Part shown: positions 19,227-40,230 of the stretch, piece by piece
Numbering within the stretch: position 1 is the first letter of the stretch
Layout of the letters: each line of letters begins with the position of its first letter
NCBI GenBank assembly: GCA_051313645.2
Contig: JBNRSN020000017.1
Location: 19,840,001-19,904,000, forward strand
Reading direction: 5' to 3'
Length of the DNA: 64,000 nucleotides
Source: Centroscyllium fabricii
Lineage: Eukaryota
Notes under the pieces: model-generated
The model's input: the letters and a program-made list of their open reading frames with translations, nothing else
Told to the model about the DNA's origin: nothing
Databases searched by the model: none
Translations under genes and position numbers: made by a program

Positions 19227-20287
19227 TACTGCCTAAAACATTTGGTTGAAGACTAATAAACTCAGTAAAAAGGACGAGCCAATCCTTTATGATTACGCCT
19301 CTTCCTGAAAAATGTACTAAATTATAGCACAAATTACCAGTCATTCTCCTGCCACTGTTAGTTGCACAGCACTCGTCAAACTTTTGTCACAGATTGTATA
19401 CTGTCAAAATAAGGCAATGCACCTATACCCAAGATGTACTACAAAATATTTGCTAAAACACAAACATTAAAAAAAGTAATGAGAAAATGGGATTTGTGAC
19501 CAGTTTGCACTACAGTAGCAAAAAGTTAAATTTTTAATAAATCAAAGTTATTAAAACAAATGATCACTGTAATGCTTCACGAGGTACCACATAGGCATGC
19601 TGGAACTGGCTATTTGTTCTACTCATTCATGGACACGCTCTCATTAATGTGGGAGTGTGAATACATAGCCTAATTGAGAAACAGGAGTGGCAACATTGTG
19701 TTGAAAGTAATATAATATCTTTAATAAAGGTAAAAAGTTAAGTAAACTTTAATAAAGCATTCCTAACCCTCCCTCCAACACAAGCCGATTAAGCATTGGC
19801 ACTTCAAACATGCTGTTCAACGGAATTAATGCTCCAATCATGTGAGGAGATAATTGCAAAGAAATCAGGGAGGTACTCCCTGGGCGCGCCTCAAATGCCT
19901 GCTACTTCTGGACCCACAAAAATAAGAACTGAAAATATGCTGTGCCTTTTACAAAGGGGCCGCCAGCAGCCTTTTAAAGGATAGCTGGTTAGGCCACTCA
20001 ATGCCTGGTACAACTAGATGGAGCATGCGTGGCGCAAGCACCGTCTGTATGTACCCAAATTTCCCATTCAGGGTCCAATAATTGACATACAAGGTCTGAT
20101 TTATATTAAGGAGCCTAATGCACATTTCAGGCAGGTGCACCGGATAACTACAAGTCACCCAAGCCAATATGGTGCCTGCCGCAATTCTGGCATGACAGAT
20201 CATGCCGTGCAATTCGGAGGTTTATCACCGATTTTACACTGGAAAAACGGGTGACCGTGATCTGAATTTCTCCTCCAACTTACTTAC

Positions 20288-20420
20288 TTGGGGTGGACAA
20301 ATGTAAGAAGTCACACAAACACCAGGTTATAGTCCACTTCACCTGACGAAGGGGCAGACGCTCCGAAAGCTTGTGATTTCAAATAAAACTGTTGGACTAT
20401 AACCTGGTGTTGTGCGACTT
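20288..20420. mobile_element. Penelope-like fragment in inverted (fold-back) arrangement
   Basis: aagtcacacaaacaccaggttatagtcca is the reverse complement of tggactataacctggtgttgtgcgactt; homologous to 25010-25085, 29744-29872 and 36191-36397. Confidence 0.75.
20339..20376 (+). ncRNA. Minimal type I hammerhead ribozyme (Penelope-associated)
   Basis: tcac-CTGACGA-a-ggggc(agac)gctcc-GAAA-gc-TT-gtga: stem I tcac/gtga, stem II, palindromic mini stem III (aagctt). Confidence 0.65.
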
Positions 20421-21020
20421 GTTGCATTATTTACTGCCAGTTGTGGTTTGATGGTTATAACATTCAATAGGCGTGAAAATTGAAGTTTTTGAAATAGAGA
20501 ACGCCAATAACTGGCTTGATCTTGTATGCTAACTTTTAACATTCTCATAAGATTTATCAAACTAAACTGATTAAATTCTTGCAATTGATGAATATGATCC
20601 TAATTCTTGCAATTGATGAATACGATCCTCTAAATTAACAGAGCTGACCTCAGCTTAACTGCACAACTCCATTAGGTTCTTCATCAGTTACTTGACTTAA
20701 GATCCTCAAGTAAAATGTTCACCAAAATTACTGTCTATATTAATGCTTCACTCTATGCTTTCGATCATGGTTCTTGAAATATAGAGACCAAGCTTCTTGT
20801 AATAGTTTAAAGGGTAATGAAATGCAATTGTCAAATCCAATTAAAAGTACCGAATTCTATTTTACAGACTTTATATTCAAATTATAAAAATAAAGGTACA
20901 TTGAATGAGGGTGTATGAAGCTAGGCATAATTTGTCTATTTATTGACCAAAAAGTATTTATATATGAGTGGCAAAGGAAAAATTACTTTAATATGCATAA
21001 TATATTAGATATAATATATT

Positions 21021-21126
21021 ATTAGTTTTGATGAAAGGTCATTGACCTAAAACGTTAACTCAGTTTCTCTTTCTCCACAGATGCTACCTGACCTGCTGAG
21101 TATTTCCAGCATTTTCTGTTTTTATT
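21021..21126 (+). mobile_element. Penelope-like terminal fragment with a mutated hammerhead core
   Basis: agtt-TTGATGA-a-aggtc(att)gacct-AAAA-cg-TT-aact; flanked by direct repeat tataatatatt (21010-21020, 21127-21137). Confidence 0.65.
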
Positions 21127-21827
21127 TATAATATATTGGATGTTTAGTTGTTTATTAAAACAGCTACTCCATGGATCGAGCAATTTCTGTTGGAATAAGT
21201 TGCACAAAGGCTGGGGCGTCAACAGTTGGCTGGCTTGAGGCCAAATATGAATCTTAAGAGTTTTGAATAAAAATGAATTGAATCGCACACAAAAAAAAAG
21301 CTTTGCTTTGGCGCAATGCCAACTAACTTTGCATAAAAGCAACAATTAAAGCTTTCAGAAGGTCAAGGAAGGAAAGGAGAGCAGTTAAGATTTACGAGTC
21401 TAAGAACAATATCTTCTCACATCCGAGAGCTAAATCTAAAACTAGTCCCATACTGCAGAAAAAATATAATTATCTTTCTTTGCTGGCTTCAAAGTGAAGT
21501 AAAATTGAAAAGTCTAAATCCAGTTTACTAGAAAATGTGTACAGTCTATAAAACTACCAAAATATAGTAGAAATTAACAGGAAAAAGAAATCCCACTTAG
21601 TATCCACTAGGATGGATGATATGAGAAATAACATTAACACCAGTATAGCAGGTACTGACTGACTAAAGAGAAAAGTTAGTGTGCATCTAACCATGCTCTA
21701 CACAACATGGGACTGTTCAATACCAATAGTGACATGTCAAAAGTATAACTGTTCCATTCTCCAATACAGACCACTAACTTTAGCGATCACATGACTACAA
21801 GAGGGGGGGAAAAAAGGCTGAAGATAT

Positions 21828-22891
21828 AGACGCATAATTTGCAGTCAGTGGTGATGCGATGGCGATCGTCGCTGACCTCGAAGAAAACTGCCCACAGAGA
21901 TCTTGCAATTTAGGTTTCTCGACGTGTAATTGATTGCAGCACTGTCAATAGGTGATTCCTAGCACAATTCAGCAGTGACAACAACAAGCTGTTTAAGCAG
22001 CCAATCACATGAAAGAATTCTCAGGCAAACCAGGAAATGAAAAGCACCGATTATCTGCGCTTGTTAAAAATGTTAGAGTGAAATAAAGATTGGGACATAC
22101 ACATGGGGTTAAGGTAGAAGCTGAAATATCATGAAAAAACTTTAAAAAAAAATTAAAATCATAATTAAGAAATTTGACATTCCGCAAATATAAAAATGAG
22201 TTATTCAGGGTCAGAGCTGTTGTTCAGCAGTTAATACACTGCTAAAACCCCAGTTACACCTATTCCAACAAGGCTCATCATTTAATGGGGGTGTTTAACA
22301 GCAATATTAGCGCGTAAAACGAAACTTTCCGTCAGTTCCGCTGATTGCCGGACTATAGGCGGCAGGGGGGGTCCACAACGCAGCGTGTCGGAGCAGCGAT
22401 TTCCGCATTTAGATGCGCACGCGTTAAATCCTTAAGTTATGGTAAGTTTTGGAGGGGTAATAGAAACATAGAAGATAGGAGCAGGAGTAGGCCATTTGGC
22501 CCTTCGAGCCTGCTCCGCCATTCAATGAGATCATGGCTGATCATCCAAACCCAGTACCCTGTCCCTGCCTTGTCCCCATATCCCTATCGAGCCTGCACCG
22601 ACACATATCCCACCCTATCCCCGTAACCCCACATATTTAATCGCCCTAACACTAAGGGTCAATTTATCCTGGCCAATCAACCTAACCCGCACATCTTTGG
22701 ACTGTGGGAGGAAACCGGAGCACCCGGAGGAAACCCACGCAGACATGGGGAGAATGTGCAAACTCCACACAGATAGTACCCGAGGCTGGATTTGAACCCG
22801 GGTCTCTAGTGCTGGAAGGCAACCGTGCTAACCACTATGCCACCGTGCCACCCCACAGTTCGCTGTCATTGACCACCACAAAATCCGGGCC
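21828..22891. mobile_element. Degenerate Harbinger-like MITE with a nested SINE
   Basis: Ends ...cataatttgcagtcagtggtgatgcga / tcgctgtcattgaccaccacaaaatccgggcc are loosely inverted; AT-rich core resembles 40231-40986; boundaries approximate. Confidence 0.45.
22460..22853 (-). mobile_element. HE1-type V-SINE
   Basis: Reverse complement of the 2834 copy. Confidence 0.9.
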
Positions 22892-22942
22892 ATTATTTCC
22901 TTTATTGAAAGGTATTAAAGTATGACCACAGAGTAACTAGAG

Positions 22943-23075
22943 CATAAGAACTAGGAGCAGGAGTCGGCCATGTGGCCCCTCGAGCCTGCTCCGCCATTCA
23001 ACAAGATCATGGCTGATCTGATCTTGGCCTCAGTTCCACTTCCCTGCCCGCTCCCCATAACCCTCGACTCCCTTA
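22943..23075 (-). mobile_element. CR1/HER1 3' tail fragment
   Basis: cataagaactaggagcaggagtcggccat...cctgctccgccattcaa...tcatggctgatc, same tail as the 24257 copy. Confidence 0.75.
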
Positions 23076-24256
23076 CGCGATTAAAGTCAGCGCTGTATTA
23101 AAATAGAGTAGAGAAGAAAAAGCCAACACTACTCTATTCTTGGTTAAGATTAATATTTACCAAAGGAGGATTGGCAAGACAAAATAATTCCTTTGAAATG
23201 TCATTAATGCATGAAAGTAAACTCATTTTAATCAAAGTACGTCACCACAATAGTACATCCCTCAGTCCTGAACGGTGGAGGAAGGATTATGACTTAGAAA
23301 TATGTAGCTAAATTGAGGCCTCCAAGAGATTAAGTTTATTTGGGATTTGGCAGTGAACAAAAGCAAGCTGTGGATTTAGATTTAAAACCAAAGTGTTTTC
23401 CTGATGTTAATTAAAGTGCTTTTGCTTTCAGCGATCAAAGACTAATCTGGCTATGATCAAAGACGTACCTCAAGTTCTTACTCATGTTTCAAAAAAAATA
23501 GTTGAGCAAGTCATCAGCTTTGAAGCCAATCAAGGTAGGCTTGGGAATCAGGAGCTGAAACAGTTAAATAGTGGAAGGGTCGAATGAAGCCGCACCCTGC
23601 ACACACACAATGCTCCAGAATGGATTCACAAGGAAGCTGGGCATAACCACAGAGAGAAGCTATCAACAGAAACAGGTTATGCAAACAAGTATTGAATGAA
23701 GATATTTGCAATCATCAGCACCGTGTAATACCCTGACTAAAATATGCCAAAACAAGCCAAGCTCTCATCATGCATGCTCATTTGCACTCATAACAACCCT
23801 ATACATTTGCTCTGAAGGGCACTGCATTTTTACCTTCACAGAAAATTAAGTGGTATTTTATCTTGAAATTTATGTGTTGATCTTCAATTATTGCATGGAA
23901 ATGTCATTTTCCATGACTCACTACTGTATTCCAATACAAATGTGCTGATGATGGGGCTGTTGCCATAGCTACAGGAACTAGGTCATACCAGAAATTCTTT
24001 TCATAGTTGGGAACAGCATTACTTAAGGGGTGAAGCCTGTGGATACTGTGAACAGTTAAACCAAACCCACAGTAACTCCAGGCTGACAATGGTTATACTA
24101 TCAGTTGCTCAACATGCCACAAAAGAAGAGAACAAATAATGTTATTAAAAAAATTATAATATGTTCCTTAAGACACTAGGACTATATCAAACATGCTGCA
24201 CTCATTTTGTGACTCACTGTCCATCAGAGACAGTTACTAAATACTTAGTGTCCATA

Positions 24257-24968
24257 CATAAGAAGTAGAAGCAGGAGTAGGCCACACGGCCCCTCGGGCC
24301 TGCTCCGCCATTCAATAGGATCATGGCTGATCCGAACTTAGACTCATGTCCACTTCCCTGCCCGCTCCCTGTAACCCCTTATTCCCTTATCAGTTAGGAA
24401 ACTGTCTATCTCCGTTTTAAATTTATTTAATGTCGCAGCTTCCACAGCTCTCTGAGGTAGCAAATTCCATAGATTTACTACCCTCTGAGTGAAGAAGTTT
24501 CTCCTCATCTCAGTTTTGAAAGGGCAGCCCCTTACTCTCAGATTATGCCCCCTAGTTCTAGTCTCAGCCATCAGTGGAAACATCCTCACCGCATCCACCC
24601 GATCAAGCCCCCTGTGGTAAACCACTGTATATAGTATATATATGTCTCCCCCTTGTGTCCCCTCCCTGTAACTGTACGTAATGCCTCCTTGCCAGGGAGG
24701 ACTCACCTGGGAGGACTCCGCTTCCCGGCTTCCTCCCCAGGCTCCGCCCACTGGGTATAAAAGTGAGAGCACACCTGAGTGCTCTCACTTTGGCTTGGAA
24801 GATCGTCGGACCTGTGTCCACTTCTATGTGAATAAAAGCCTCGATTACATCTAACCAACGACTGGCGTAATTGATTGTGCATCACCCCCTCACAATCTTA
24901 TATGTTTCGATAAGATCGCCTCTCATTCTTCTGAATTCCAATGAGTAGAGGCCCAATCTACTCAACCT
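24257..24968 (-). mobile_element. CR1 (HER1-like) LINE 3' end interrupted by a solo LTR
   Basis: ORF 24344..24772 ends RTRGHNLRVRG...RRNFFTQRVVNLWN; CR1 sequence resumes after 24889. Confidence 0.9.
24613..24884 (+). mobile_element. Solo LTR (Gypsy-type)
   Basis: TG...CA termini, 5-bp TSD ccccc, TATA (gggtataaaa), aataaa signal; ends shared with the LTR at 60499. Confidence 0.85.
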
Positions 24969-25009
24969 ATACAAAATCTAACATGCCATATTCAAATGTA
25001 AGTTTTATC

Positions 25010-25085
25010 TGTTGGACTATAACCTGGTGTTGTGTGACTTCTGGCATTTGTCCACCCCAGTCCGACAGCGGCACCTCGTCACATT
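25010..25085 (+). mobile_element. Penelope-like terminal fragment
   Basis: ctgttggactataacctggtgttgtgtgacttc...tgtccaccccagtcc matches the 29744 copy. Confidence 0.7.
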
Positions 25086-26096
25086 CAAACCCTGCTCTCA
25101 CTTCATATAAGCAATGATCACCTGCGCTGGTGTAATGCTGCCCCCTCTGCTCTGGAGGATATTCTTTATACTTTAAGATTGTAATTTAATTGTAATATTT
25201 TAGGCCCTTATCTAAACGTTTATGCGTCATTGGATGCCTGGTACCGTAAGGCATTTTGGGTGCAACAGAGGCAGGCAAGTTGGTGGCCAATTCCCTCCTC
25301 CTGCGTAGTCTAATCCCATCGCCTCAGTAACCCCGGGGAGTGGAAGAGAGAGAGAAGCAATTAAAAAAAAAAAATTGTGTAGTCGGCAAGAGCTGCTTTA
25401 ATAAACTTTCTGCAAAACTAAATATGATCTTTCACTGTACTTCTTCAGGTTTTAAATACAGGTTCAGTTAGATGCTATTGGAAAAATCTTAAATACAGTG
25501 TGAAACAATAAAAGTAATCAGTATCATTTCCATTCAGCGTCTGGAGAATTCGCCTGAAAACTGATTGACAAATGATTTTTCAAAACACGATTTTTTACGG
25601 CACTACTATGTTCAATCTAAATTGGTTGCAAAGTTTTATATCCTCAATTGAACCCCGAAAATATAAGAGAATGAGATTACTGCTTCCAGTCTAGAGTTTA
25701 CACTTAAGAGCCCCAATTCCTTAGGTCAGTAAGTGTTGGATGTTTTAAGAAAAATAATGCAGTTTTAAATCATCAGTGTGAATTCCACACTGATCACACA
25801 TCAGAAAAAGTGCAGCTAATAATTATCATACAAATTAACCATATGCAAATCCGTGCTGAGCTGAAGCAGCAATCGGGGCATAATGCCTCGAGACTAGGAA
25901 ATTAAAATAAACCATCAGTGTGTGCGTGGAATCAGGCTTGGCTGTACCGCCCAACACAAACTGAAAAACCTGCTGACACTTGCCGTCAAGTCTCGCACAT
26001 AAAAAAATGACTGCTTAGGTATGGCAAGGCTCTGACCACTCGTGGAACTGTACATCAGCAAGACTCAGCATCTTCAGAGGAGAAAGAATGGAAATT

Positions 26097-26950
26097 GGAG
26101 AGGGGAAGAGGGAGGGAGGGAGAAGAGGGAGGGAGGGGAGAAGAGGGAGGGGGGAGGGAGAAGAGGGAGGGGGGAGGGAGGGAGGGGGAAGAGGGAGTGG
26201 GGAGGNNNNNNNNNNNNNNNNNNNNNNNNNNNNNNNNNNNNNNNNNNNNNNNNNNNNNNNNNNNNNNNNNNNNNNNNNNNNNNNNNNNNNNNNNNNNNNN
26301 NNNNNNNNNNNNNNNNNNNNNNNNNNNNNNNNNNNNNNNNNNNNNNNNNNNNNNNNNNNNNNNNNNNNNNNNNNNNNNNNNNNNNNNNNNNNNNNNNNNN
26401 NNNNNNNNNNNNNNNNNNNNNNNNNNNNNNNNNNNNNNNNNNNNNNAAGAGGGAGGGAAGGGGAAGATGGAGGGAAGGGGAAGATGGAGGGAAGGGGAAG
26501 ATGGAGGGAAGGGGAAGATGGAGGTAGGGGGGAAGAGGGAGGGAAGGGGAAGATGGAGGGAAGGGGAAGATGGAGGGAAGGGGAAGATGGAGGTAGGGGG
26601 AAGAGGGAGGGAAGGGGAAGAGGGAGGGAAGAGGGAGAGAAGGGGAAGGAGGGGGAAGAGCGAGGGAGGGAAGGGGAAGAGGGAGGGAGGGAAGGGGAAG
26701 AGGGAGGGAGGGGGAAGAGGGAGGGAGGGGGAAGAGGGGGGAGGTGGAAGAGGGGGGGAGGTGGAAGAGGGGGGGAGGTGGAAGAGGGGGGGAGGTGGAA
26801 GGGGGGGGAGGTGGAAGAGGGGGGGAGGTGGAAGAGGGGGGGAGGTGGAAGAGGGAGGGAGGGGGAAGAGGGACGGAAGGGGAGAAGAGGGAGGGGAAGG
26901 AGAAGGGAGGTGGAGGAGAAGGGAGGGAGGGGAGGAGGAGGAGGGGGGAG
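26097..26950. repeat. Polypurine (G/A) low-complexity tract spanning an assembly gap
   Basis: ggaggg, gggaaggggaagatgga and ggaggtggaagagggg units; N run at 26206-26446. Confidence 0.95.
26206..26446. other. Assembly gap (241 N)
   Basis: Run of n characters. Confidence 1.
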
Positions 26951-27716
26951 CTGGAGGGATTTGATCCAAAAAAAATATGAAAGGGAGGTGCAATATTATG
27001 CAGTGATAAAGTTATTGCAGAAGTACAAATTAATGCTTGTTCAGATTGTGCATATACAATTACAGCAGAGATCTGTACAGGACAACAGCACAGGGGGCAC
27101 TGATCCAAGTCAAAGGTGACGTAAATTCAGAGAACATCCAATTCCCTCACCCCATACCCAAACATCGACATTCATTTGCAGCAGCAGTTGATATATTTGG
27201 CACTGCCTAGCACTAATCATCCCTATTTCTCAGTTTCAACAATATTACAAGATGTGTGTTGAAAGTAACAATAATCGGATTGGACAACTACAATGCATTT
27301 TTATGCTGCTCTACCACTGGCACAGAAACCACAGGCCACAACTGCACTCTGGTTTCTGACTGATGACTGTTCAAATGCTGGTTCCTAAAAAGCAGCTGTC
27401 AAATTTGGAGTGGTATCACAACAATCTGCAAGACAGCTTCAACTCCCAAGTGAAACAAAGATACAAAGAAGTAATTCTGGAAAGTACGCAAACCAGTCCA
27501 CAATGCAGCTGAGCAACTCAGAAATAGCACATTTGATTAATTTAGTATAGAAACCTTATTACAATGCAACAAAAATCTGCAGTGCAAAATAATATACTTT
27601 TAATGAAAATTAAGATGAAAGAAACAAAACGTTTTACAAAAAAGGTGCCATCCATTTGGACAGATAAGTGAGAAATACCCACTACATGTGGTTTACAAGG
27701 TAGCAGGAAAAACAAT

Positions 27717-29274
27717 GGGGGGAATTTTCCAGGGTGGTCAGTGGCCAGGATCAGTGGCAGGTCAGGTGGGAAAGTGTTTATTTTTGACAGCAGGTCAGGA
27801 CCCCACTGTCAACCATCCGCCACGTGCCTTTACCAAAAGACGGGTCGGTCAGCACTGAGCAGACCAGACGTGCAGCGGCAGGGGAGGCAATTCAGGTCAT
27901 TATGACCTTGTTAACAGAAGATTAACAACAATTTTGAGCTCACCTTTCGAATTTACCAGCTCGCCCACGGGGTCCATGCTGCTCGGCGATCACGACTGTT
28001 AAGCTGGGTGCGAGTTGAATGGCCATGGAATCATCTTATTACTTGACAGCTTGAAATGTGCTATAAAAGCTCCCATCTCACAGCTGTTCACTTTCCAAGC
28101 TAAGAAGCTGTTGCTTACTGCATTTGGAAGGCAGATTGAGCTTTATGCAGGTTTGGAGTAAACTCTCTATCCAGTGTCACCTCATTGGAACACCTCTTAC
28201 CACTGACAGATTGCTTCTGTCATCTCAAGATCACCTGCATGGGTATGGTTTATACTTTCTCACCTTGGTCCTCAGAATCGGACCACAATCAGCCGCAACA
28301 CCAGCAGCACTAACTACCACACCAACCTTCTCCGCAATCACCTGATGCTGCACAGGACAGAGGGCATCAGCACCCGAATACATTGCTGTCTGGAATGTCA
28401 GGGATGGCTTCACCATGGCCACATTTACTTCACTTGATGCTGTACACCCTGGCTGCCACCACCCCATACCAACAACAGAAAGCATCCCTACAATGCCCAA
28501 GCCATTCCTTTCACACTCATCAGCTTTGCAAGGGGGTACTTTTATGTGTCATCATTCACTGCAACTTACTAAGCCACTTCCAAAGGTGCACACAAATCTG
28601 TCCAAGAACAGAAAGTATTGTAAATAAATATTTCAATGCTTGACAGCACATTAACAGAAAGTTCACATGAACACTGGCTAAAACACACAAGTGCCTAATG
28701 TAGATAGAGAGGGATGGGTGGAGGTGCAAGGTAAACTGGTGTGAGTAAGGATGTGCAGAAGTAGGGTAGGGAAGGCAGCGTGCTAGGGATGTGATAAGTG
28801 GCACAGCAGGATGAAGTTGAGTGTGGCTTTGCAGTAATGTTTCGTGATAAACTGAGATCAATGAAAGATTTGCGCCACTGCAGCCTGGTCCTCCTGACAG
28901 CATCCCTGCTTGTGCCCTCCTGTGCAATGTGCAACCAGGCTCAATGGAAGGGACGTGAACCTCCCTGTGTGCTGGGACTCCCTCCATAAGCATATGGAGG
29001 GAGTCATGGGAGAGCCTGGATGCACCTCTGTGTAATGCTAGTCAGTGTTTGCAGCACAAATGTCAAAGTAACACGGTCCCTTTAAGGAAGCCGGCTGATG
29101 ATGCATCCTCAAATGGCGTCATCAGACTTGCTCCCGTCAATTGGCCAGAAAACGCGCTGGGCGGGCTCAACAAGCCCAATCAGGGGAAAGTCATGTCGGA
29201 ATCTAGGACGGGGCCAGCAGAGAGGCCGCGACCCGCCACCGACCTCTCCCGCCCAGGTTGGGGAAATCGTGGCC
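27717..29274. mobile_element. Decayed PIF/Harbinger element with a Myb/SANT-like gene remnant
   Basis: aat|ggggggaattttcc ... ggaaatcgtggcc|aat; minus strand ~28855-29025 reads SRLSHDSLHMLMEGVPAHREV / AWLHIAQEGTSRDAVRRTRLQWRKSFIDL (frameshifted), typical of Harbinger Myb-like proteins. Confidence 0.75.
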
Positions 29275-29743
29275 AATGACCTTGTTCTGTGCTTTGCACT
29301 GAACCCAAAATAAATACCATCCTTTGGATTTTGCACACCCCATCATTAGCAAGAATATAAATAAAAACACAGAAAACCCATTTACAGCATCTTCGCAAAT
29401 GCAACCATTGGTCACAAAAATACTCATACTGTACATGAACCCACTTGGATTAAATACTCAATCTGAAGCTTCATTAAATGGTAGGCTAGTGATGTTGGGT
29501 TGGTGCTCCAGCGTGCTGTAACATGCAGTATTATGACATGGGTTCACACCCATGATTTCCACAAAAGCGATCTCCCAATTTCAGCTGTGCCAACAGGGAG
29601 GTAGGTAACCTGCCCCATCAGTGGGAAAATGTTATGTAGCTTATAAGAATTCTTTGAAGAAATAACAGAGGATAGATGTGCAATGGGTGTAGTTCAGATG
29701 GATCTTCAGAAAGCTTTTAATAAAGCACTGTATAAGACATTAC

Positions 29744-29872
29744 TCTTTCCACCTGACAAAGGGGCGAACGCTCCGAAAGCTTGTGATTTAAAATAAAACT
29801 GTTGGACTATAATCTGGTGTTGTGTGACTTCTTGCAATTGTCCACCCCAGTCCAACACCGGCACCTCCACAT
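29744..29872 (+). mobile_element. Short Penelope-like insertion with hammerhead remnant
   Basis: 13-bp TSD tataagacattac (29731-29743, 29873-29885); core CTGACAA (G8 mutated)...GAAAgctt. Confidence 0.8.
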
Positions 29873-29918
29873 TATAAGACATTACAACAGTATAATATAA
29901 ACACAATGACATTCCTAT

Positions 29919-30683
29919 ATTGACGATTTTGTGAATGGGGGCGTGTTGAAGGCGGGACTGCTGCTTGTCGGGTCAATGTCCCGCCTCTATCGATTTGTGG
30001 CCAACCCACGCTATTTTCCCCTGATTGATCTTGTTCAGCTGGCTTAGCAGATCAATCAAGGGAAAGTCAAAGATTTTTGACAGATGAATTGTCATCGTTT
30101 GACAGCTCTGTGAAGCTGTCAAACAGTGACATTCTTTGCAGTTTGATGAGATCTTGCATACATGACCGCATCAACCTTCTTTCTTTTACAGAAATGAGAT
30201 GGTTGTTGCATATGAAAATGCAACAGCCATCTCTCATCTGCAACACGGAGGTCCGAGAGTCTCCGCACACAAACCAACTGAAGCCTGCAGGAAGAAACAA
30301 AGGTAATTACACTTTTAAGAAACACTTTGCACTTACCTCAGATACTCACCTCTACACTCTTGCACCCATCACACCACACTTTTGCACCACCTCGACCCCC
30401 GCAGACCCAGGACTCACCTCGCTCAGCTGGCGTGTTTTGGAGCCTTCGGCAAGCCCGCACTTATGGGCAAAAAGGGGATTATCCTATTTTCTACTTGTTA
30501 ACAGGCAGTTAATAGGCGTTAATTCGTTCCCGCCTCCAAGGAGGCGGGACCCAGCGCGGGACGGCTACCCGCCTCCTGGGAAGATGACATGGAGGCGGGT
30601 TGGGCACCCGCCCCCAAATGCTGCCATTTTCCCAGCAGTCCCGCCTCCGTACCCGCTGCCCCAGGGCTGGCAAAATCACCCCC
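29919..30683. mobile_element. Harbinger-like MITE (inverted homologue of 37082-37910)
   Basis: Colinear with the reverse complement of 37082-37910; right end caaaatcaccccc|tat; left end degenerate. Confidence 0.8.
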
Positions 30684-30779
30684 TATATTTCTAAAAGTAC
30701 TTCTTTGGCAGAAAAGCACTTTGGGACGTGCTGAGGATGTGACAGGTGCTATATAAATGAAAGTTCTTTCTTTCTACGT

Positions 30780-31335
30780 GACTCATTGCAAAGATAATGG
30801 CACATATAATGAAAGGGCGATGTAGTCACAGAGAGATGGTTTGAGGTCAGAAAGCAAATGGTATGAGTAAAAGGGAAGCTTCTTAGACTGGATAAATATA
30901 GTGAGTCATGTTTCATAGTGGTCATAATGCATAATTAATGCAGAATAAATAAAAGCAAAGTACAGAAATATTTTGGACTTGGGAACTGAAGGAACAAGAT
31001 TAAAATTTGCTGATGATGCCAATTTTTTTTTGGGGGGGGGGGGGGGCGGTGGCGGGGAAAGAGTTACAAATTGTGACAAGGACTGTGAAAGACTCCAGAA
31101 GGGCACATATCGGTTAGCAGGAAGGATTGATAGGTGGAAGATGCAATGGGTCTAAAAGGTACAGAAATATGAAATAATACATTTTGGAAGCAAGAACAGG
31201 GAAAGGAAATGCATCTTAACGAGTAAGATTTTGAATGGACCAGAGGAGTAAAGGGGCTTTGGTATGAAGGTACACAGGTCATTAAATGTGGGAGTGCAAG
31301 TAGATAAAACTATACAAAAATGTGCAAATGGAATC
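30780..31335 (+). mobile_element. Old degenerate CR1 RT fragment
   Basis: LKFADDA...DCERLQ...W in ORF 30973..31155; a 5' piece at ~29640-29725 (DLQKAFNK). Confidence 0.6.
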
Positions 31336-32012
31336 CTTGTACAAAAGCAAGATTTTACAATTTGAACCAGTAGTAAAATGCCTGAAGCATATGAAAATTG
31401 AATATATACTGGAAAATAAACCTGAGTCACTGCCAATTTTAATTTCAAACATCTTTCAGTCATTTCATGGTCTCATTCACATCCTATTTGATTTGTCACA
31501 TTAGTTCCTTCAAAATCCATTTATACTGTATTTGTAAAGGAATAATAATAAAACATACAACAAAAAGTGATTTTGTTCATACTGTCAAGATTTGACAGAC
31601 TAAAAACCCCCATTACAAGGGAATCCTAGAGAAAGTCTTGCTCTATAAGCCCAATTCTTACTCTTGCAACATTTATTTCTATTATCCTTAGAAACAGCAC
31701 ACCTACATAGAGCATTTAACAGATTTAAAATGTTATGACAGCCCTCCAAAAGCACTGCTGATGCACAGCTTCCAACTGCACTGTGTATGACTCACAATGT
31801 GGTTGGCGGTCTTACCAGACAAAGAGCATGTGTGGGGGGAAACTACCCTTTATATTAGTCACTTTAAAAAAGTTATTATAAAGTTTTAAAATGCACTTTG
31901 GTTAGTTTAAGGATATAGTTTTGGAGAATTGAAAAAGACTGTACTGAGAGTATCAGCCATTTTAGTGCAAAACTGGGGACAGAATATCCCTAACATGCAA
32001 CACTTGTATTAC

Positions 32013-34848
32013 AGTGGTATTCAAAATGGTAGAGTATTCTATATGGTAGAATAACCGCCAGTGGTATTCTATATGGTAGAATAACCGCCAGTGGTATTCT
32101 ATATGGTAGAGTATTCTATATGGTAGAATAACCGCCAGTGGTATTCTATATGGTAGAATAACCGCCAGTGGTATTCTATATGGTAGAATAACCGCCAGTG
32201 GTATTCTATATGGTAGAGTATTCTATATGGTAGAATAACCGCCAGTGGTATTCTATATGGTAGAATAACCGCCAGTGGTATTCTATGTGGTAGAATAACC
32301 GCCAGTGGTATTCTATATGGTAGAGTATTCTATATGGTAGAATAACCGCCAGTGGTATTCTTTATGGTAGAATATTCTATATGGTAAAATAACCGCCAGT
32401 GGTATTCTATATGGTAGAGTATTCTATATGGTAGAATATTCTATATGGTAGAATATTCTATATGGTAGAATAACCGCCAGTGGTATTCTATGTGGTAGAA
32501 TATTCTATATGGTAAAATAACCGCCAGTGGTATTCTATATGGTAGAGTATTCTATATGGTAGAATAACCGCCAGTGGTATTCTATATGGTAGAGTATTCT
32601 ATATGGTAGAATAACCGCCAGTGGTATTCTATATAGTAGAGTATTCTATATGGTAGAATAACCACCAGTGGTATTCTATATGGTAGAGTATTCTATATGG
32701 TAGAATATTCTATATGGTAGAATATCCGCCAGTGGTATTCTATATGGTAGAGTATTCTATATGGTAAAATAACCACCAGTGGTATTCTATATGGTAGAGT
32801 ATTCTATGTGGTAGAATATTCTATATGGTAGGATAACCGCCAGTGGTATTCTATATGGTAGAATAACCGCCAGTGGTATTCTATATGGTAGAATAACCGC
32901 CGGTGGTATTCTATATGGTAGAGTATTCTATATGGTAGAATATTCTATATGGTAGAATAACCGCCAGTGGTATTCTATATGGTAGAGTATTCTATATGGT
33001 ATTCTATATGGTAGAATAACCGCCAGTGGTATTCTATATGGTAGAATAACCGCCAGTGGTATTCTATATGGTAGAATAACCGCCGGTGGTATTCTATATG
33101 GTAGAATAACCGCCGGTGGTATTCTATATGGTAGAATAACTGCCAGTGGTATTCTATATGGTAGAATATTCTATATGGTAGAGTAACCGCCAGTGGTATT
33201 CTATATGGTAGAATAACCGCCAGTGGTATTCTATATGGTAGAATAACCGCCAGTGGTATTCTATATGGTAGAGTATTCTATATGGTAGAATAACCGCCAG
33301 TGGTATTCTATATGGTAGAATAACCGCCAGTGGTATTCTATATGGTAGAATAACCGCCAGTGGTATTCTATATGGTAGAGTATTCTATATGGTAGAATAA
33401 CCGCCAGTGGTATTCTATATGGTAGAATAACCGCCAGTGGTATTCTATGTGGTAGAATAACCGCCAGTGGTATTCTATATGGTAGAGTATTCTATATGGT
33501 AGAATAACCGCCAGTGGTATTCTATATGGTAGAGTATTCTATATGGTAGAATAACCGCCAGTGGTATTCTTTATGGTAGAATATTCTATATGGTAAAATA
33601 ACCGCCAGTGGTATTCTATATGGTAGAGTATTCTATATGGTAGAATATTCTATATGGTAGAATATTCTATATGGTAGAATAACCGCCAGTGGTATTCTAT
33701 GTGGTAGAATATTCTATATGGTAAAATAACCGCCAGTGGTATTCTATATGGTAGAGTATTCTATATGGTAGAATAACCGCCAGTGGTATTCTATATGGTA
33801 GAGTATTCTATATGGTAGAATAACCGCCAGTGGTATTCTATATAGTAGAGTATTCTATATGGTAGAATAACCACCAGTGGTATTCTATATGGTAGAGTAT
33901 TCTATATGGTAGAATATTCTATATGGTAGAATATCCGCCAGTGGTATTCTATATGGTAGAGTATTCTATATGGTAAAATAACCACCAGTGGTATTCTATA
34001 TGGTAGAGTATTCTATGTGGTAGAATATTCTATATGGTAGGATAACCGCCAGTGGTATTCTATATGGTAGAATAACCGCCAGTGGTATTCTATATGGTAG
34101 AATAACCGCCGGTGGTATTCTATATGGTAGAGTATTCTATATGGTAGAATATTCTATATGGTAGAATAACCGCCAGTGGTATTCTATATGGTAGAGTATT
34201 CTATATGGTATTCTATATGGTAGAATAACCGCCAGTGGTATTCTATATGGTAGAATAACCGCCAGTGGTATTCTATATGGTAGAATAACCGCCGGTGGTA
34301 TTCTATATGGTAGAATAACCGCCGGTGGTATTCTATATGGTAGAATAACTGCCAGTGGTATTCTATATGGTAGAATATTCTATATGGTAGAGTAACCGCC
34401 AGTGGTATTCTATATGGTAGAATAACCGCCAGTGGTATTCTATATGGTAGAGTATTCTATGTGGTAGAATATTCTATATGGTAGAATAACCGGCAGTGGT
34501 ATTCTATATGGTAGAATAACCGCCAGTGGTATTCTATATGGTAAAATAACCGCCAGTGGTATTCTATATGGTAGAGTATTCTATGTGGTAGAATATTCTA
34601 CATGGTAGAATAACTGCCAGTGGTATTCTATATGGTAGAATAACCGCCAGTGGTATTCTATATGGTAGAATAACCGCCAGTGGTATTCTATATGGTAGAA
34701 TAACCGCCAGTGGTATTCTATATGGTAGAATAACCGCCAGTGGTATTCTATATGGTAGAATAACCGCCAGTGGTATTCTATATGGTAGAGTATTCTATAT
34801 GGTAGAATAACCGCCAGTGGTATTCTATATGGTAGAATAACCGCCAGT
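32013..34848. repeat. Satellite built from 30-bp (gtggtattctatatggtagaataaccgcca) and 17-bp (gtattctatatggtaga) units
   Basis: Directly visible tandem array of ~2.8 kb. Confidence 0.98.
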
Positions 34849-35917
34849 GTCATCACATCAATTTTATTATGAATCAACATCACTTTGGTACAACTGCAGC
34901 AGTGGCCAGAGTCTGGAAATAGACCGCTTGCATGTGTCCATTAGACATTAGTCACAAAATGACCAGGGTTAAAATGCCAGTCGGGGAGACTAGTCATATT
35001 CTTTGTTTTTCCCATCACTGTAAACCCCACAAAACCTGATGAGATTGTGGATATTGACAGCTGCACGTACTAGTTGGTTTTCTAAGATATCCTCAACACC
35101 CAATAAATTAAAGGTGAATGGACAGCAGTTTAAACATTTATTTTTTTTAAACGACAACAGCTGTCACCAAATGGGGTAGTCTCTCTCAAAACAACATTTT
35201 CTGTCATGTACATTGCTTTAAAGGCCTACAAAAAACAGCAAGTTAAACATTATACCAGACAACACTATTAAATTTAATACACAGTCACTGGATTTTTCTT
35301 GTACCTCATAGCTTCTGCTTTTCGCCGCTCAAGATTAGTTTGGCGTTCCAGTAAAAAAATGTCAAACCGGCTAATTTAAAATAGACTGCAGTCACCGGAT
35401 GAGGCAAAGTCTGAGGAGGGGCCCAATTTAAGCACACATAAAAAATGAGGCATGTTGAGGCGTGTTATTGTTCTACAGAGGAAGAACCAGAGCCTTGTGA
35501 CTCTAAGAACATTGGAGCATCAACACACAGTGCTCCCGAGTACAAAGCACACAAGCCCAAATGCTTTCAGACTATAAATTGCAATAAGCTCATTTGTGCT
35601 CAGCTAATGTGGGCCTGCAAGTGGTGCGATAACACATCGCAGAGCCACAAGGATTCTCAGCAACACGTCATAGCAACAGCACATTCGGCTGAAGTGTTTA
35701 GTATGGTTATGTCTCCATGGCATCAGGCACACAAAATAAATTTCGTTTGGGAAGTAAGGAGTCGCACATTACTGCATTTCACTTCTCTCAAATGCCTATT
35801 TGCTGCTGGTTTCTCTAAACTCAGTTCTGGTCTAGATCACCGTATAGTGCTGGATATTGGTCTGCTTCATAAAAGTGGGCAACTATAGTAAACAAAAATG
35901 TGAACATTTGAACAGTA

Positions 35918-36865
35918 CAGGTTGAGCACCGTTAATCCGGTAACCGAATAGCCGGCAGCTTCAGTCTGCCGGCACAAATTGCCCCGACTGCACTGCGCAT
36001 GCGCAAAATGGCAGCCGACATCGTGGCTTCAACGAATGATCTGCGCATGCGCCGAGTGCATGCGCAGATCATTCAAAACAGCTGCGGGTGTTTTGAATGA
36101 TCCGCGCATGCGTCGCCGGAAGGTTAGCGCATGCGCAGATAATTCAATACGGCCGCCGGTTATTTTATCGATAACTGTAATTGAAGCCATGATGTGGAGG
36201 TGCTGGTGTTGGACTGGGATGGACAATTGTAAGAAGCCACACAGCACCAGGCTGTAGTCCAAAAGTCCCACTCGAAATCACGGGCCTTCGGAGCGCCGCT
36301 CCCCCATCACCTGACGGGGAAGCGGCGCTCCGAAAGCCCGTGACCCCAACTAAAACCGTTGGACCACAGCCTGGCGCCGTGTGACCTCTTACAATTGAAA
36401 GCAAAACGGGATTGGATAAATTGCCCCCCCGCCGACCCGCGCCACCCTCCTTTCCCCCCCCCCCCCGGACCCGCGCCTTCCTCCTCCCCCCCCCCACCGA
36501 CCCGCGCCTTCCTCCTCCCCCCCCCCACCGACCCGCGCCACCCTACTTCCCCCCCCCCCCCCCCGCGCCGCGCCACGCCACGCCACCCTCCTGCCTCCCC
36601 CCGCAAGACCGGCCTTTCACTGCTGCCCGACAGCCCTAAAACCTAAACGGAACGCCACAAAAGCCTGAGCCCATCAAAAAACTTCGCGGCGGCCAATATT
36701 GGACGATCTGCGCATGCGCGCGCCAGCCAATACCAATGTTGCGCGCATGCGCGCTGCCATTGGGACTGGTGCGCATGCGCAGTGTCCAAACTCGTTCTCC
36801 CAGTTTTTTCCATTTCCCGGCACGGGCCTGGTCCCGCCCGTGCCGGATTAACGGTGCTCAACCTG
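35918..36865. mobile_element. Tigger/pogo-like MITE, family copy C, with a Penelope hairpin and C-rich repeat inside
   Basis: TA|caggttgagcaccgttaatccgg ... ccggattaacggtgctcaacctg|TA (perfect 23-bp TIR). Confidence 0.92.
36191..36397. mobile_element. Penelope-like fold-back fragment, hypermutated
   Basis: Both arms align without gaps to 20339-20420 and 29749-29872. Confidence 0.8.
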
Positions 36866-37081
36866 TAGTACAAAAAATGAGGTCCTCGGCTGATGAAAAT
36901 GTTTAACTTGTGGACCTTACGAGATATAATCGTCTGGTTGCACGGACAGGACGCAAAAGAACACAAAACAGCTTCAAAGTGCATGAGCAGCTCAATAACA
37001 TTTTTTTATTTTTTTTAAAGGCAGAAAAGCAAGTCTAAATTTCTAGATATATTTTACACAGTAGGTACCAGAAGAGAGTAA

Positions 37082-38628: not shown

Positions 38629-39511
38629 AAAATAGATCTTCTTGAAGACTAAAAAAGTTTCAGTGTTGTGAACTCGACATTTTAATAGGACCCACACACT
38701 GCTTGAATGCTTCCACAGAAAGGTTAATTTTAAAAATGCAATTATTCTAATCATAGTGCAAGTCTTTATGTAAGCCAAGTACTGGAGAAAGAAAAAACAT
38801 CTTGCTACTCCTACTGTGTCGCTTTTTGCGCTATTCAGTGAATTGCACATACATCAGCATATTGCTGCGTGCCAAGATTAAGGGATTTTACAATTTGAGA
38901 AAATATGTATTCAAGGCATTCATTAAAATTTAATATATTGAGTCCTCAATGATTGAAATAGTCCAAAGCAGCTAACAGGAAATAAACAGCTGCTGCAACC
39001 ACATTAACCATAATTTACAGCTCTATTCTGGACCATATTCACCACAATTTACAGCTCTACTCTGGATTTTTTTAACTCATTATCTTCATTGATATATCAC
39101 AAAGATATTTATTCAGGAGCAATCATCACTTTATATGAGATACAGTATATAATTTCTCCATAAGAGATTGCCATCAGCATTCAATATGAAATCTGGTAGA
39201 GAGAACCAGGCTCTCATCATTCCTACTCTAGCATAAAGCCACATAAGAAACTGTGTCCCTCCAGTGATTCAACTGGTCAATTAATCAGTGTTTTATTGGT
39301 AAACTATACAGGCCAGGGAAGTGGCAGCTTCTATTCCTTGAGTTAACTAATCGCAGCTGGAGCATCACTGGCAGCACTACAACTGGCCACAGCTTCCGTA
39401 GGCTAGGGAGGAGAAAATAAATCAGCCAGGGTTTCTGCTTGATTGTTATCATGGGGTCTTTGCTGGAACAAGTTACTGATACTAAAAGATGCAGATACAA
39501 TATATGTAATA

Positions 39512-39876
39512 CAGGTTGAGCACCGTTAATCCGGACACCGGTAATCCGCTAACTTCAGTTGTCCAGAACGAATCCGGCCGACTGGTCTGCGCATGCGCAA
39601 AATGGCCGCCGCGCTTGCAGGCCTCTCCCCGACTGCCAGACTGGTATGCGCATGTGCGAAATGGCCGCCGCGCTTGGCTGCGCATGCCCGGGCCTCCCCG
39701 AACGATTGATGCTTCGGCAAGCGCATGCGCAGACCATTCAAAATGGCCACAGGCCTTCGTGGCGGCCATTTTGAATGGTCCGCGCATGCGCTCGCCAAAG
39801 CTTCACTCGTTCGGCTTTTTCAGTAATCCGGCATGGGCCTGGTCCCGACCGTGCCGGATCAACGGTGCTCAACCTG
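39512..39876. mobile_element. Tigger/pogo-like MITE, family copy D
   Basis: TA|caggttgagcaccgttaatccgg ... ccggatcaacggtgctcaacctg|TA; interior closest to copy B. Confidence 0.92.
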
Positions 39877-40230
39877 TACTATTTATCTATCACTTTAGAA
39901 AATATGTTCAAGATGCAAATACCTGTAATGGTTTAATCTTCCCTGGGGATTGAGTTCTGCTTCCCAGAGTTGGAAATTTCACTTGAGCTTTGGGTGCTGA
40001 GGATTTTCAGCTCCTGGGACTGATTTTTGTGGGGAAATTCATTGCAGGTATTTCTAAAATTAAACTATTAATTTTTGGGGTAAGCTTAACGATTTTAGCT
40101 AAATTTATTTAATTCTCATTTTTTTTTAAATCAACATATTTGGCTGGGTGAAAAATTATATTGGTGGCTGCAACTGCTTTGGAAGAAAGTAAATTGAGAA
40201 AATGTATTCACAAGTGCGTATAAGGTTAAT

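What the first reader, a model, noticed from the sequence alone, without database searches (positions are those of the whole stretch)
36224..36397. Hairpin-confined T>C / A>G hypermutation: possible A-to-I editing fixed in the genome
Seen: this Penelope-derived fold-back aligns without gaps to unmutated relatives at 20339-20420 and 29749-29872. Over 2 x 65 aligned nt I counted by hand 20 T>C, 5 A>G, 1 A>C and 1 C>A. The adjoining unpaired part of the same element (36192-36223) shows only C>T and G>A. All five A>G changes lie opposite a T>C in the other arm, turning A:T pairs into G:C. The other T>C changes are A>G on the minus strand (the BAIAP2 pre-mRNA strand), where they leave G:U pairs. 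The hammerhead core is destroyed (CTGACGG). Established: ADARs hyper-edit A>I in long dsRNA. Inference: an edited hairpin RNA was reverse-transcribed or templated back into DNA, followed by arm-to-arm conversion. Alternatives are palindrome-specific GC-biased repair or an assembly/polishing artefact.
Basis: partly seen in the sequence, partly recalled or inferred. Interest (0 to 1): 0.82.

Follow-up and report, generated by a model that had tools for sequence, protein, structure and literature searches.

The report
RNA-edited hairpin written into genome
This genomic hairpin carries a dense one-strand burst of A-to-G changes, likely left by the RNA-editing enzyme ADAR before the RNA was copied back into DNA; a small DNA transposon now holds it at about 2,700 places, and dozens of other hairpins in this genome, including spliced copies of an unedited parent gene, show the same scar.

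Summary
Real, and larger than reported. The hairpin is cargo of a 948-bp TA-flanked MITE (2,671 hits), so the BAIAP2-type host strand is irrelevant. The same one-strand A>G scar marks about 44 independent Penelope-type hairpin loci (roughly 1-2 per 1,000 arms), with ADAR's 5' neighbour order (U,A>C>G). The clearest case: a gene with an unedited 3'-UTR fold-back has 19 examined retrocopies (the longest spliced); A>G hits 196 of 541 fold-back A's, T>C 2 of 574, and each edited copy differs. A LINE/SINE 3' tail lies downstream on the edited strand in 28 of 45 loci (mirror 3). So hyper-edited RNA was reverse-transcribed into the germ line repeatedly. Inferred only: the enzyme, how this cassette entered the MITE, and its 8 G:C pairs (a second, opposite-strand round is favoured). 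The scan noted ADAR-like fossils before on other DNA (e1-7810917, e1-8036428, e1-8045548).

The parts
35916..35917 (.). TA target-site duplication, left copy
   Evidence: sequence; TA on both sides in 28 of 28 sampled copies where both ends were found, of 30
35918..35940 (+). left 23-bp terminal inverted repeat of the MITE
35918..36865 (.). 948-bp non-autonomous DNA transposon (MITE), 2,671 pattern hits in the genome; body shows no T>C/A>G bias against its cargo-free sister family
36189..36223 (-). unpaired Penelope-type 3' tail, unedited (0 of 9 A's); may extend a few bases to about 36184
36224..36309 (-). long arm, element-sense on the minus strand: 11 A>G on the minus strand, 4 T>C, 1 G>T; hammerhead core broken
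36310..36311 (.). 2-nt loop at the 5' edge of the hammerhead
36312..36397 (+). short (inverted) arm: 12 T>C on the plus strand (= A>G on minus), 4 A>G, 1 G>A, 1 A>C; hammerhead core broken
36398..36424 (.). short stretch found neither in the sister MITE nor in the Penelope-type element; possibly flank captured with the cassette (inferred)
   Evidence: alignment to sister MITEs; no donor or empty site found
36425..36610 (.). C-rich variable tandem tract that makes MITE copies differ in length (about 810-1,310 bp)
36843..36865 (-). right 23-bp terminal inverted repeat
36866..36867 (.). TA target-site duplication, right copy
20289..20426 (.). unedited relative (partial fold-back) used as comparison
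29749..29875 (+). unedited single-arm relative with tail used as comparison

Best explanation
The hairpin is a Penelope-type fold-back whose RNA was likely hyper-edited A-to-I by ADAR on the minus strand and likely reverse-transcribed into germ-line DNA, and it now rides as fixed cargo in a young DNA transposon with about 2,700 copies. Shown: one-strand A>G at 23 of 49 stem A's, none in the tail or MITE body; the same scar at about 44 independent loci; and, for one family, spliced and 5'-truncated retrocopies that each carry a different A>G set from an unedited parent 3'-UTR hairpin. Inferred: the enzyme is ADAR; most such RNAs are read-through or mRNA transcripts primed by a LINE reverse transcriptase at a downstream LINE/SINE 3' tail; this cassette entered the MITE once, already edited (by DNA capture of an edited copy or by Penelope-type insertion); its 8 G:C pairs come from two passes through RNA on opposite strands, the A:C mismatches left by one pass being preferred targets in the other (my odds about 55%, against DNA repair or arm copying).
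For: Strand asymmetry 15 vs 0, all 8 A>G opposite T>C. Pattern for A>G arms: 52 hits, 46 with further A>G by the listing; G>A control: 16 hits, 0 with a further change; unedited 26-mer: 69,486 hits. Unselected partner arms: T>C 114/426 vs A>G 5/344 and A>G 89/283 vs T>C 2/364; tails 2/200; 5' neighbour U 0.51, A 0.54, C 0.28, G 0.19, site-level p=0.004; the window's edited sites are the hot sites of the other loci (p=0.006). Parent versus 19 retrocopies: fold-back A>G 196/541, T>C 2/574, single-stranded UTR A>G 16/2154, 5' G depleted p=6e-8, 14 distinct patterns; parent has four exons spread over 45 kb that are joined in the C800 copies; common 3' tail, variable 5' ends, 1,330 of 2,485 column pairs not tree-compatible. 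Sense LINE/SINE tail downstream in 28/45 edited loci, mirror 3/45, ordinary 2/52. MITE body 1 T>C in 407 positions. One other arm bears both A>G and T>C (L252). ADAR 5' U/A preference: PMC5663115 passages; A:C preference: 10.1101/605972 passages.
Against: No unedited or half-edited precursor, donor or empty site of this cassette was found, and no LINE tail adjoins it, so its own RNA step is inferred by analogy. In the window alone the 5' G effect is weak (3 of 10 vs 20 of 39, hand count). The 3' G enrichment of ADAR was not seen (p=0.21; G 0.42 vs U 0.46). 17 of 45 edited loci have no tail within 1.5 kb. Lone edited antisense arms exist (L098, L108, L118, L119, L120; L099, L107, L115 with unedited neighbours) whose partner is assumed lost by 5' truncation, untested. 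No RNA reads were laid.
Confidence: 0.88

Rival explanations
1. Same RNA-editing origin, but the 8 G:C pairs come from DNA events (G:T or A:C mismatch repair towards G:C, or copying of one arm onto the other) during capture into the MITE, not from a second editing round. This rivals one step only.
For: 8 of 8 plus-strand A>G sit opposite a T>C and none opposite T; if edits were independent at the measured hot-site rates the chance is under 1% (product of rates). A fold-back inside a sister MITE has arms that share private changes, so arms can be copied from each other (L270).
Against: Only 5 converted pairs against 466 G:U-type in 30 other two-armed loci; 0 of 378 conversions in 27 MITE copies that otherwise differ at 41 of 4,536 stem positions; donors alternate between arms at neighbouring columns, unlike conversion tracts; all 8 are editing hot sites (0.44-0.74); L252 shows both polarities in one arm.
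Confidence: 0.35
2. The changes arose in place in DNA: palindrome-specific GC-biased repair or a DNA adenine deaminase acting on extruded hairpins or DNA:RNA hybrids.
For: Edited fold-backs often keep the element's usual ends; ADARs can edit the DNA strand of hybrids in vitro (PMC12925331 passage).
Against: The parent locus has a perfect, unedited palindrome while its retrocopies are edited, also those truncated to one arm; ordinary genomic fold-backs are unedited; polarity follows the downstream LINE tail; C>T changes, which would also give G:U, are nearly absent (1 of 35 G:C columns).
Confidence: 0.04
3. A GC-rich subfamily, or selection on the MITE for an RNA hairpin that tolerates G:U while breaking the DNA palindrome.
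For: All 30 sampled MITE copies carry the variant; centre deletions in 2 of 30 show that the palindrome is unstable, so weakening it may have helped the MITE spread.
Against: Outside the MITE the A>G sets differ from locus to locus and are not tree-like; selection for G:U would use C>T as well.
Confidence: 0.03
4. Assembly or polishing artefact (for example RNA reads polished into the assembly).
For: None found; the single-copy edited loci were not checked against reads.
Against: Top 40 of 885 candidates are near-identical over 321 bases; 2,671 hits; contigs of runs X1, X2 (two samples) and X6 (another study, another organism code) cover all hairpin bins with no difference listed inside the stem.
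Confidence: 0.01

Closest known systems
ADAR-type A-to-G hypermutation of avian retroviral RNA fixed in DNA (Rous-associated virus U3, avian leukosis virus inverted repeat; Felder 1994, Hajjar and Linial 1995, as summarised in PMC12925331)
   Same: About half of the A's in an inverted repeat become G on one strand and are fixed by reverse transcription.
   Different: Here the templates are host mRNA/read-through RNAs with Penelope-type hairpins, the copies are inherited in a vertebrate genome at dozens of loci, the vehicle is mostly a LINE tail, and one product was amplified by a DNA transposon.
A-to-I hyper-editing of inverted repeats in introns and 3' UTRs (PMC5663115)
   Same: Substrate (inverted repeats in a 3' UTR), density and 5' neighbour rule.
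   Different: Normally seen only in RNA; here it is genomic. Goodier 2016 (PMC4982230 passage) called the role of such editing in retroposon sequence evolution not yet determined.
APOBEC DNA editing of retroelements (PMC2873906)
   Same: Clusters of one substitution type in genomic retroelement copies, tied to reverse transcription.
   Different: G-to-A on cDNA, not confined to double-stranded RNA; a G>A control showed no clustering here.
SINE/LINE shared 3' tails and stringent LINE recognition (PMC3747384; HE1/HER1 pair listed for sharks and rays)
   Same: Retrocopies share a 3' end at a SINE/LINE tail and vary at the 5' end.
   Different: A SINE tail inside a host 3' UTR mobilises a spliced mRNA together with its editing marks; the SINE and LINE family names are recalled, not tested.
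Penelope-like elements with inverted pLTR, hammerhead and 30-40 nt tail (PMC8557442, PMC11167929)
   Same: Head-to-head arms, one ending short and one with a 35-nt tail; hammerhead motif in unedited copies.
   Different: A minimal non-coding fragment with both ribozyme cores broken, moving as DNA-transposon cargo.

Membership tests
ADAR hyper-editing footprint | one substitution type (A>G) on one strand | tested here: met
   15 vs 0 one-sided changes; partner arms; 196/541 vs 2/574
ADAR hyper-editing footprint | confined to double-stranded RNA, up to about half of the A's | tested here: met
   23/49 in stem, 0/9 in tail; tails 2/200; single-stranded UTR 16/2154
ADAR hyper-editing footprint | 5' neighbour U/A preferred, G depleted | tested here: met
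   pooled p=0.004 and p=6e-8; weak in the window alone (3/10 vs 20/39, hand count)
ADAR hyper-editing footprint | 3' neighbour G enriched | tested here: not met
   p=0.21; G 0.42 vs U 0.46, A 0.38, C 0.29
ADAR hyper-editing footprint | inosine in the RNA and dependence on an ADAR enzyme | not testable with these tools
   no RNA reads laid; needs RNA-seq with matched DNA or enzyme assay
LINE-made retrocopy (gene-derived family) | introns removed | tested here: met
   four exons on C1044 joined in the C800 copies
LINE-made retrocopy (gene-derived family) | common 3' end at a tail, variable 5' truncation | tested here: met
   one of 20 loci (L246) ends earlier
LINE-made retrocopy (gene-derived family) | the tail belongs to a CR1-clade LINE | tested here: inconclusive
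   an RVT_1 fragment (E 1e-5, below Pfam cut-off) lies upstream of the same tail in L070; clade name recalled
LINE-made retrocopy (the window cassette itself) | LINE tail or target duplication adjoining the cassette | tested here: not met
   no tail beside 36189-36397; no empty site
Penelope-like element | inverted truncated copy plus 30-40 nt tail at one end | tested here: met
   description in PMC8557442 passages
Penelope-like element | hammerhead ribozyme motif in the pLTR | tested here: inconclusive
   core letters present in unedited arms (consensus recalled); Rfam reported no hammerhead in 20200-37000
Penelope-like element | linked RT plus GIY-YIG endonuclease ORF | tested here: inconclusive
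   weak RVT_1 (E 8e-4) between two arms in L219; no GIY-YIG Pfam hit in L219 or L126 frames
Tc1/mariner-pogo-type MITE | terminal inverted repeats and TA target duplication | tested here: met
   23-bp perfect TIRs; TA on both sides in 28/28
Tc1/mariner-pogo-type MITE | short, high-copy, homogeneous | tested here: met
   948 bp; 2,671 hits; about 1% divergence in the stem
Tc1/mariner-pogo-type MITE | autonomous partner with a DDE transposase and the same TIRs | not tested
   superfamily label rests on TA plus recalled TIR likeness to Tigger elements

The most novel reading that the evidence does not exclude
In this genome A-to-I editing is a routine germ-line mutator: LINE machinery copies hyper-edited mRNAs and read-through RNAs back into DNA at hundreds of loci, hairpins can pass through RNA twice on opposite strands so that A:U pairs ratchet to G:C, and DNA transposons can then multiply the product thousands of times. 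Retrocopy families with a surviving parent are thus a fossil, single-molecule record of germ-line editing.
Probability: 0.5. Interest if true: 0.88.

Novelty: new variant of a known kind. Interest (0 to 1): 0.78.

Why it matters
Whether RNA editing feeds back into inherited DNA and shapes retroposon sequences is usually argued indirectly. Here an unedited parent hairpin and many differently edited retrocopies, the longest of them spliced, sit in one assembly, so the flow from edited RNA to genome can be read molecule by molecule and tested against RNA-seq. It shows that heavily edited RNA can be reverse-transcribed in the germ line, gives a simple genome-wide test (one-strand A>G clusters upstream of LINE tails), breaks Penelope-type ribozymes, and warns that such loci can be mistaken for GC-rich subfamilies, miRNA-like hairpins or mis-mapped editing sites.

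Tried and rejected
Empty MITE site: 0 hits. Unedited donor at the right junction: 0 hits. MITE with an unedited site next to the left junction: 2 hits, both single back-changes in otherwise edited copies. Editing of the BAIAP2-type pre-mRNA in place: rejected. The whole MITE passing through RNA: rejected, its own inverted repeats show no bias. Penelope RT as the general vehicle, which predicted only lone sense arms: not borne out, lone arms of both kinds occur within 10 kb each side and a LINE tail marks polarity; it stays possible for this cassette. CpG-context glycosylase repair for the G:C pairs: 2 of 8 converted vs 4 of 15 unconverted in TpG context (hand count), no signal. miRNA precursor: Rfam matches (mir-3160, mir-1986) are below gathering scores and reflect a long stem. 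Run X12 lacks cover in parts of the stem; that is not proof of absence. Pfam found no GIY-YIG domain in spacer frames. Paper searches for prior genomic ADAR fossils in retrocopies or non-LTR elements returned no such report; the library lacks most subscription journals and bioRxiv supplements were not seen, so this is no proof of absence.

Full report
Observation. The fold-back runs 36224-36309 / 36312-36397 with a 2-nt loop and a 35-nt unpaired tail at 36189-36223. I scored it against the commonest letter per column of 59 family arms from the window and fetched loci (seven tandem-array duplicates dropped). Of 49 A:T columns, 23 have A>G on the minus strand and 8 on the plus strand; the 8 are a subset of the 23 (p=0.001), and the 15 one-sided changes all fall on the minus strand (p=6e-5). 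The tail has 0 of 9 A's changed. Ordinary arms show about 1% of either change. The minus strand folds as a near-perfect rod through G:U pairs, the plus strand less well.

It is genomic and it is cargo. A search of the own genome gave 885 candidates; the 40 scored were all near-identical over 321 bases (the 29 other fetched loci differ by one base). The shared unit is a 948-bp element, 35918-36865, with 23-bp terminal inverted repeats and TA on both sides. A pattern in its left part has 2,671 hits. All 30 sampled copies carry the edited hairpin (27 with the whole stem, 2 with the centre deleted, 1 interrupted). Contigs of runs X1, X2 and X6 cover every bin of the stem with no difference listed there (X1 or X2 may be the assembly's source, X6 is another study). 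Against a cargo-free sister family (13,394 hits; 23 of 25 fetched had both ends) the MITE body has 1 T>C in 407 scored positions. So the cassette was edited before or as it entered the MITE, and the host gene's strand here (an IMD exon on the minus strand) is irrelevant. No empty site, donor or half-edited precursor was found.

It recurs. A pattern fixing two A>G and excluding the MITE gave 52 hits, 46 with further A>G by the listing; its mirror gave 96; the unedited 26-mer 69,486; a control fixing two G>A gave 16 hits, none with a further change. I fetched the first 30 hits of each. After removing places found twice and 7 loci with three or fewer changes, 48 loci fall into 44 groups by 3' flank (L093 and L094 share a pattern, so about 43-44 events). 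With the joint rates of the fixed sites (7 of 17, 8 of 12) this suggests roughly 1-2 edited arms per 1,000, a rough figure. Partner arms, which were not selected, show A>G on the same strand: T>C 114/426 against A>G 5/344 in inverted arms, A>G 89/283 against T>C 2/364 in sense arms; these counts include a few unedited neighbours that are not true partners. Over 69 edited arms the rate by 5' neighbour is U 0.51, A 0.54, C 0.28, G 0.19 (site-level p=0.004), tails 2/200, and the window's edited sites are the hot sites elsewhere (p=0.006). This is ADAR's 5' rule (PMC5663115, passages). The 3' G preference was not seen.

The RNA step is shown for one family. Locus L073 belongs to about 22 long hits at 92-94%; 20 were fetched. 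They share a 3' end at a repeated tail and differ at their 5' ends, and 1,330 of 2,485 A/G column pairs are not tree-compatible. One member (L242, C1044) is the parent: its last exon follows a splice acceptor, encodes an HTH_psq domain (LCOR-like by recall), and three upstream exons lie 24-45 kb away, while the C800 copies have them joined. Its 3'-UTR fold-back is a perfect unedited palindrome. In the 19 copies A>G hits 196 of 541 fold-back A's against T>C 2 of 574; single-stranded UTR 16 of 2,154; 5' G is depleted (p=6e-8). Of 15 copies covering enough of the hairpin, 14 are edited, all differently, and one (L249) is not; copies truncated inside the hairpin keep a lone edited arm. Across loci, a tail of this kind lies downstream on the edited strand within 1.5 kb in 28 of 45 edited loci, in the mirror position in 3 of 45, and in 2 of 52 ordinary locus-strands. 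An RT fragment precedes the same tail in L070. By the SINE/LINE shared-tail model (PMC3747384, passages) a LINE RT most likely primed these RNAs; the clade (CR1) is recalled.

How it most likely works. Penelope-like elements leave head-to-head copies with a tail at one end (PMC8557442, passages; PMC11167929, parts 1-2 of 4 read), and this family has some 70,000 arms, so many transcripts carry long hairpins. ADAR edits up to half their A's (inferred enzyme). When the transcript also bears a LINE/SINE tail, it is reverse-transcribed, inosine is read as G, and the edits become heritable (shown for the gene-derived family, inferred elsewhere). One edited fold-back entered a MITE, which then spread by DNA transposition. 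Whether Penelope RT placed it there or the MITE captured an edited genomic copy is open: both ends are the element's usual ends, about 10 and 27 foreign bases flank it, and no LINE tail adjoins.

The 8 G:C pairs are peculiar to this cassette. In 30 other two-armed loci there are 466 G:U-type, 5 converted and 4 A:C-type positions, and 27 MITE copies show 0 conversions in 378 chances. Donor arms alternate at neighbouring columns. All 8 sites are editing hot sites, A opposite C is ADAR's best target (10.1101/605972, passages), and L252 has both polarities in one arm (1 of 2 hits). I favour two passes on opposite strands (about 55%) over DNA repair or arm copying (about 35%) and other routes; none is shown.

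Against my reading. The window cassette's own RNA step rests on analogy; its 5' G effect alone is weak (3/10 vs 20/39, hand count); 17 of 45 edited loci lack a nearby tail; lone edited antisense arms need a lost upstream partner; no RNA reads were examined and single-copy edited loci were not checked against reads; Rfam gave no hammerhead and Pfam no GIY-YIG, so the Penelope label rests on structure and recall.

Known and new. A-to-G hyper-edited inverted repeats fixed by reverse transcription are known from avian retroviruses (PMC12925331, passages; originals not read), and APOBEC leaves G-to-A clusters in genomic retroelements (PMC2873906, passages). A 2016 review called the role of ADAR editing in retroposon evolution undetermined (PMC4982230, passage). 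Six searches (listings only) found no report of inherited ADAR-edited retrocopies, within a library that lacks most subscription papers. Earlier notes of this scan describe ADAR-like fossils in a LINE-borne hairpin, a provirus and an L1 on other DNA (unchecked; one gave the lead to the retroviral precedent); none was found for this genome or sequence. New here are the parent-to-copy proof, the genome-wide recurrence with LINE-tail polarity, and amplification of an edited product by a DNA transposon. Verdict: real; new variant of a known kind; interest 0.78.

Noticed in passing
G000:C1044:340851081-340899500 (L242, L281, L283) and copies L231-L250, L287: A gene with an HTH_psq last exon (recalled as LCOR/LCORL-like) has produced about 20 retrocopies, apparently primed at a SINE tail in its 3' UTR; the C800 copies are spliced.
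   Followed up: yes
L242:790-1186: The parent 3' UTR holds a second SINE that the longer retrocopies lack; L237 begins within its tail, so copies may date from before and after this insertion.
   Followed up: partly
L232, L238, L241, L231 SINE part: The 3'-UTR SINE is heavily A>G changed in 4 of 19 copies (35, 18, 17, 11 of 66 A's); an inverted SINE in the parent's last intron could be its partner, which would put editing before splicing.
   Followed up: partly
L183/L184 (around L071): A>G-rich bins extend over about 3 kb of other repeats on one strand; L087 also has an edited SINE downstream, so the scar is not limited to Penelope-type arms.
   Followed up: partly
L252 (G000:C1377 near 205.152 Mb): A fold-back with one arm carrying both A>G and T>C clusters, a second candidate for two-strand editing.
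   Followed up: partly
L270: An unedited perfect Penelope-type palindrome with an 11-bp target duplication inside a sister MITE; its arms share private changes.
   Followed up: partly
window 39510-39878: An older, shorter cargo-free relative of the MITE with the same terminal repeats; a sister family has 13,394 pattern hits.
   Followed up: partly
L158, L176, L175: Two MITE copies lost the hairpin centre (36277-36313) and one is interrupted in the left arm; about 12 of 30 copies share a 5-nt deletion at the right junction.
   Followed up: no
L114, L116, L117 and many hits with the same matched letters: Another multi-copy family that carries one edited arm in a tail-to-tail arrangement.
   Followed up: no
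window 33500-34850 and upstream: A long AT-rich tandem repeat of mixed 13-27 nt units.
   Followed up: no
window 26206-26446: 241 N; not examined.
   Followed up: no
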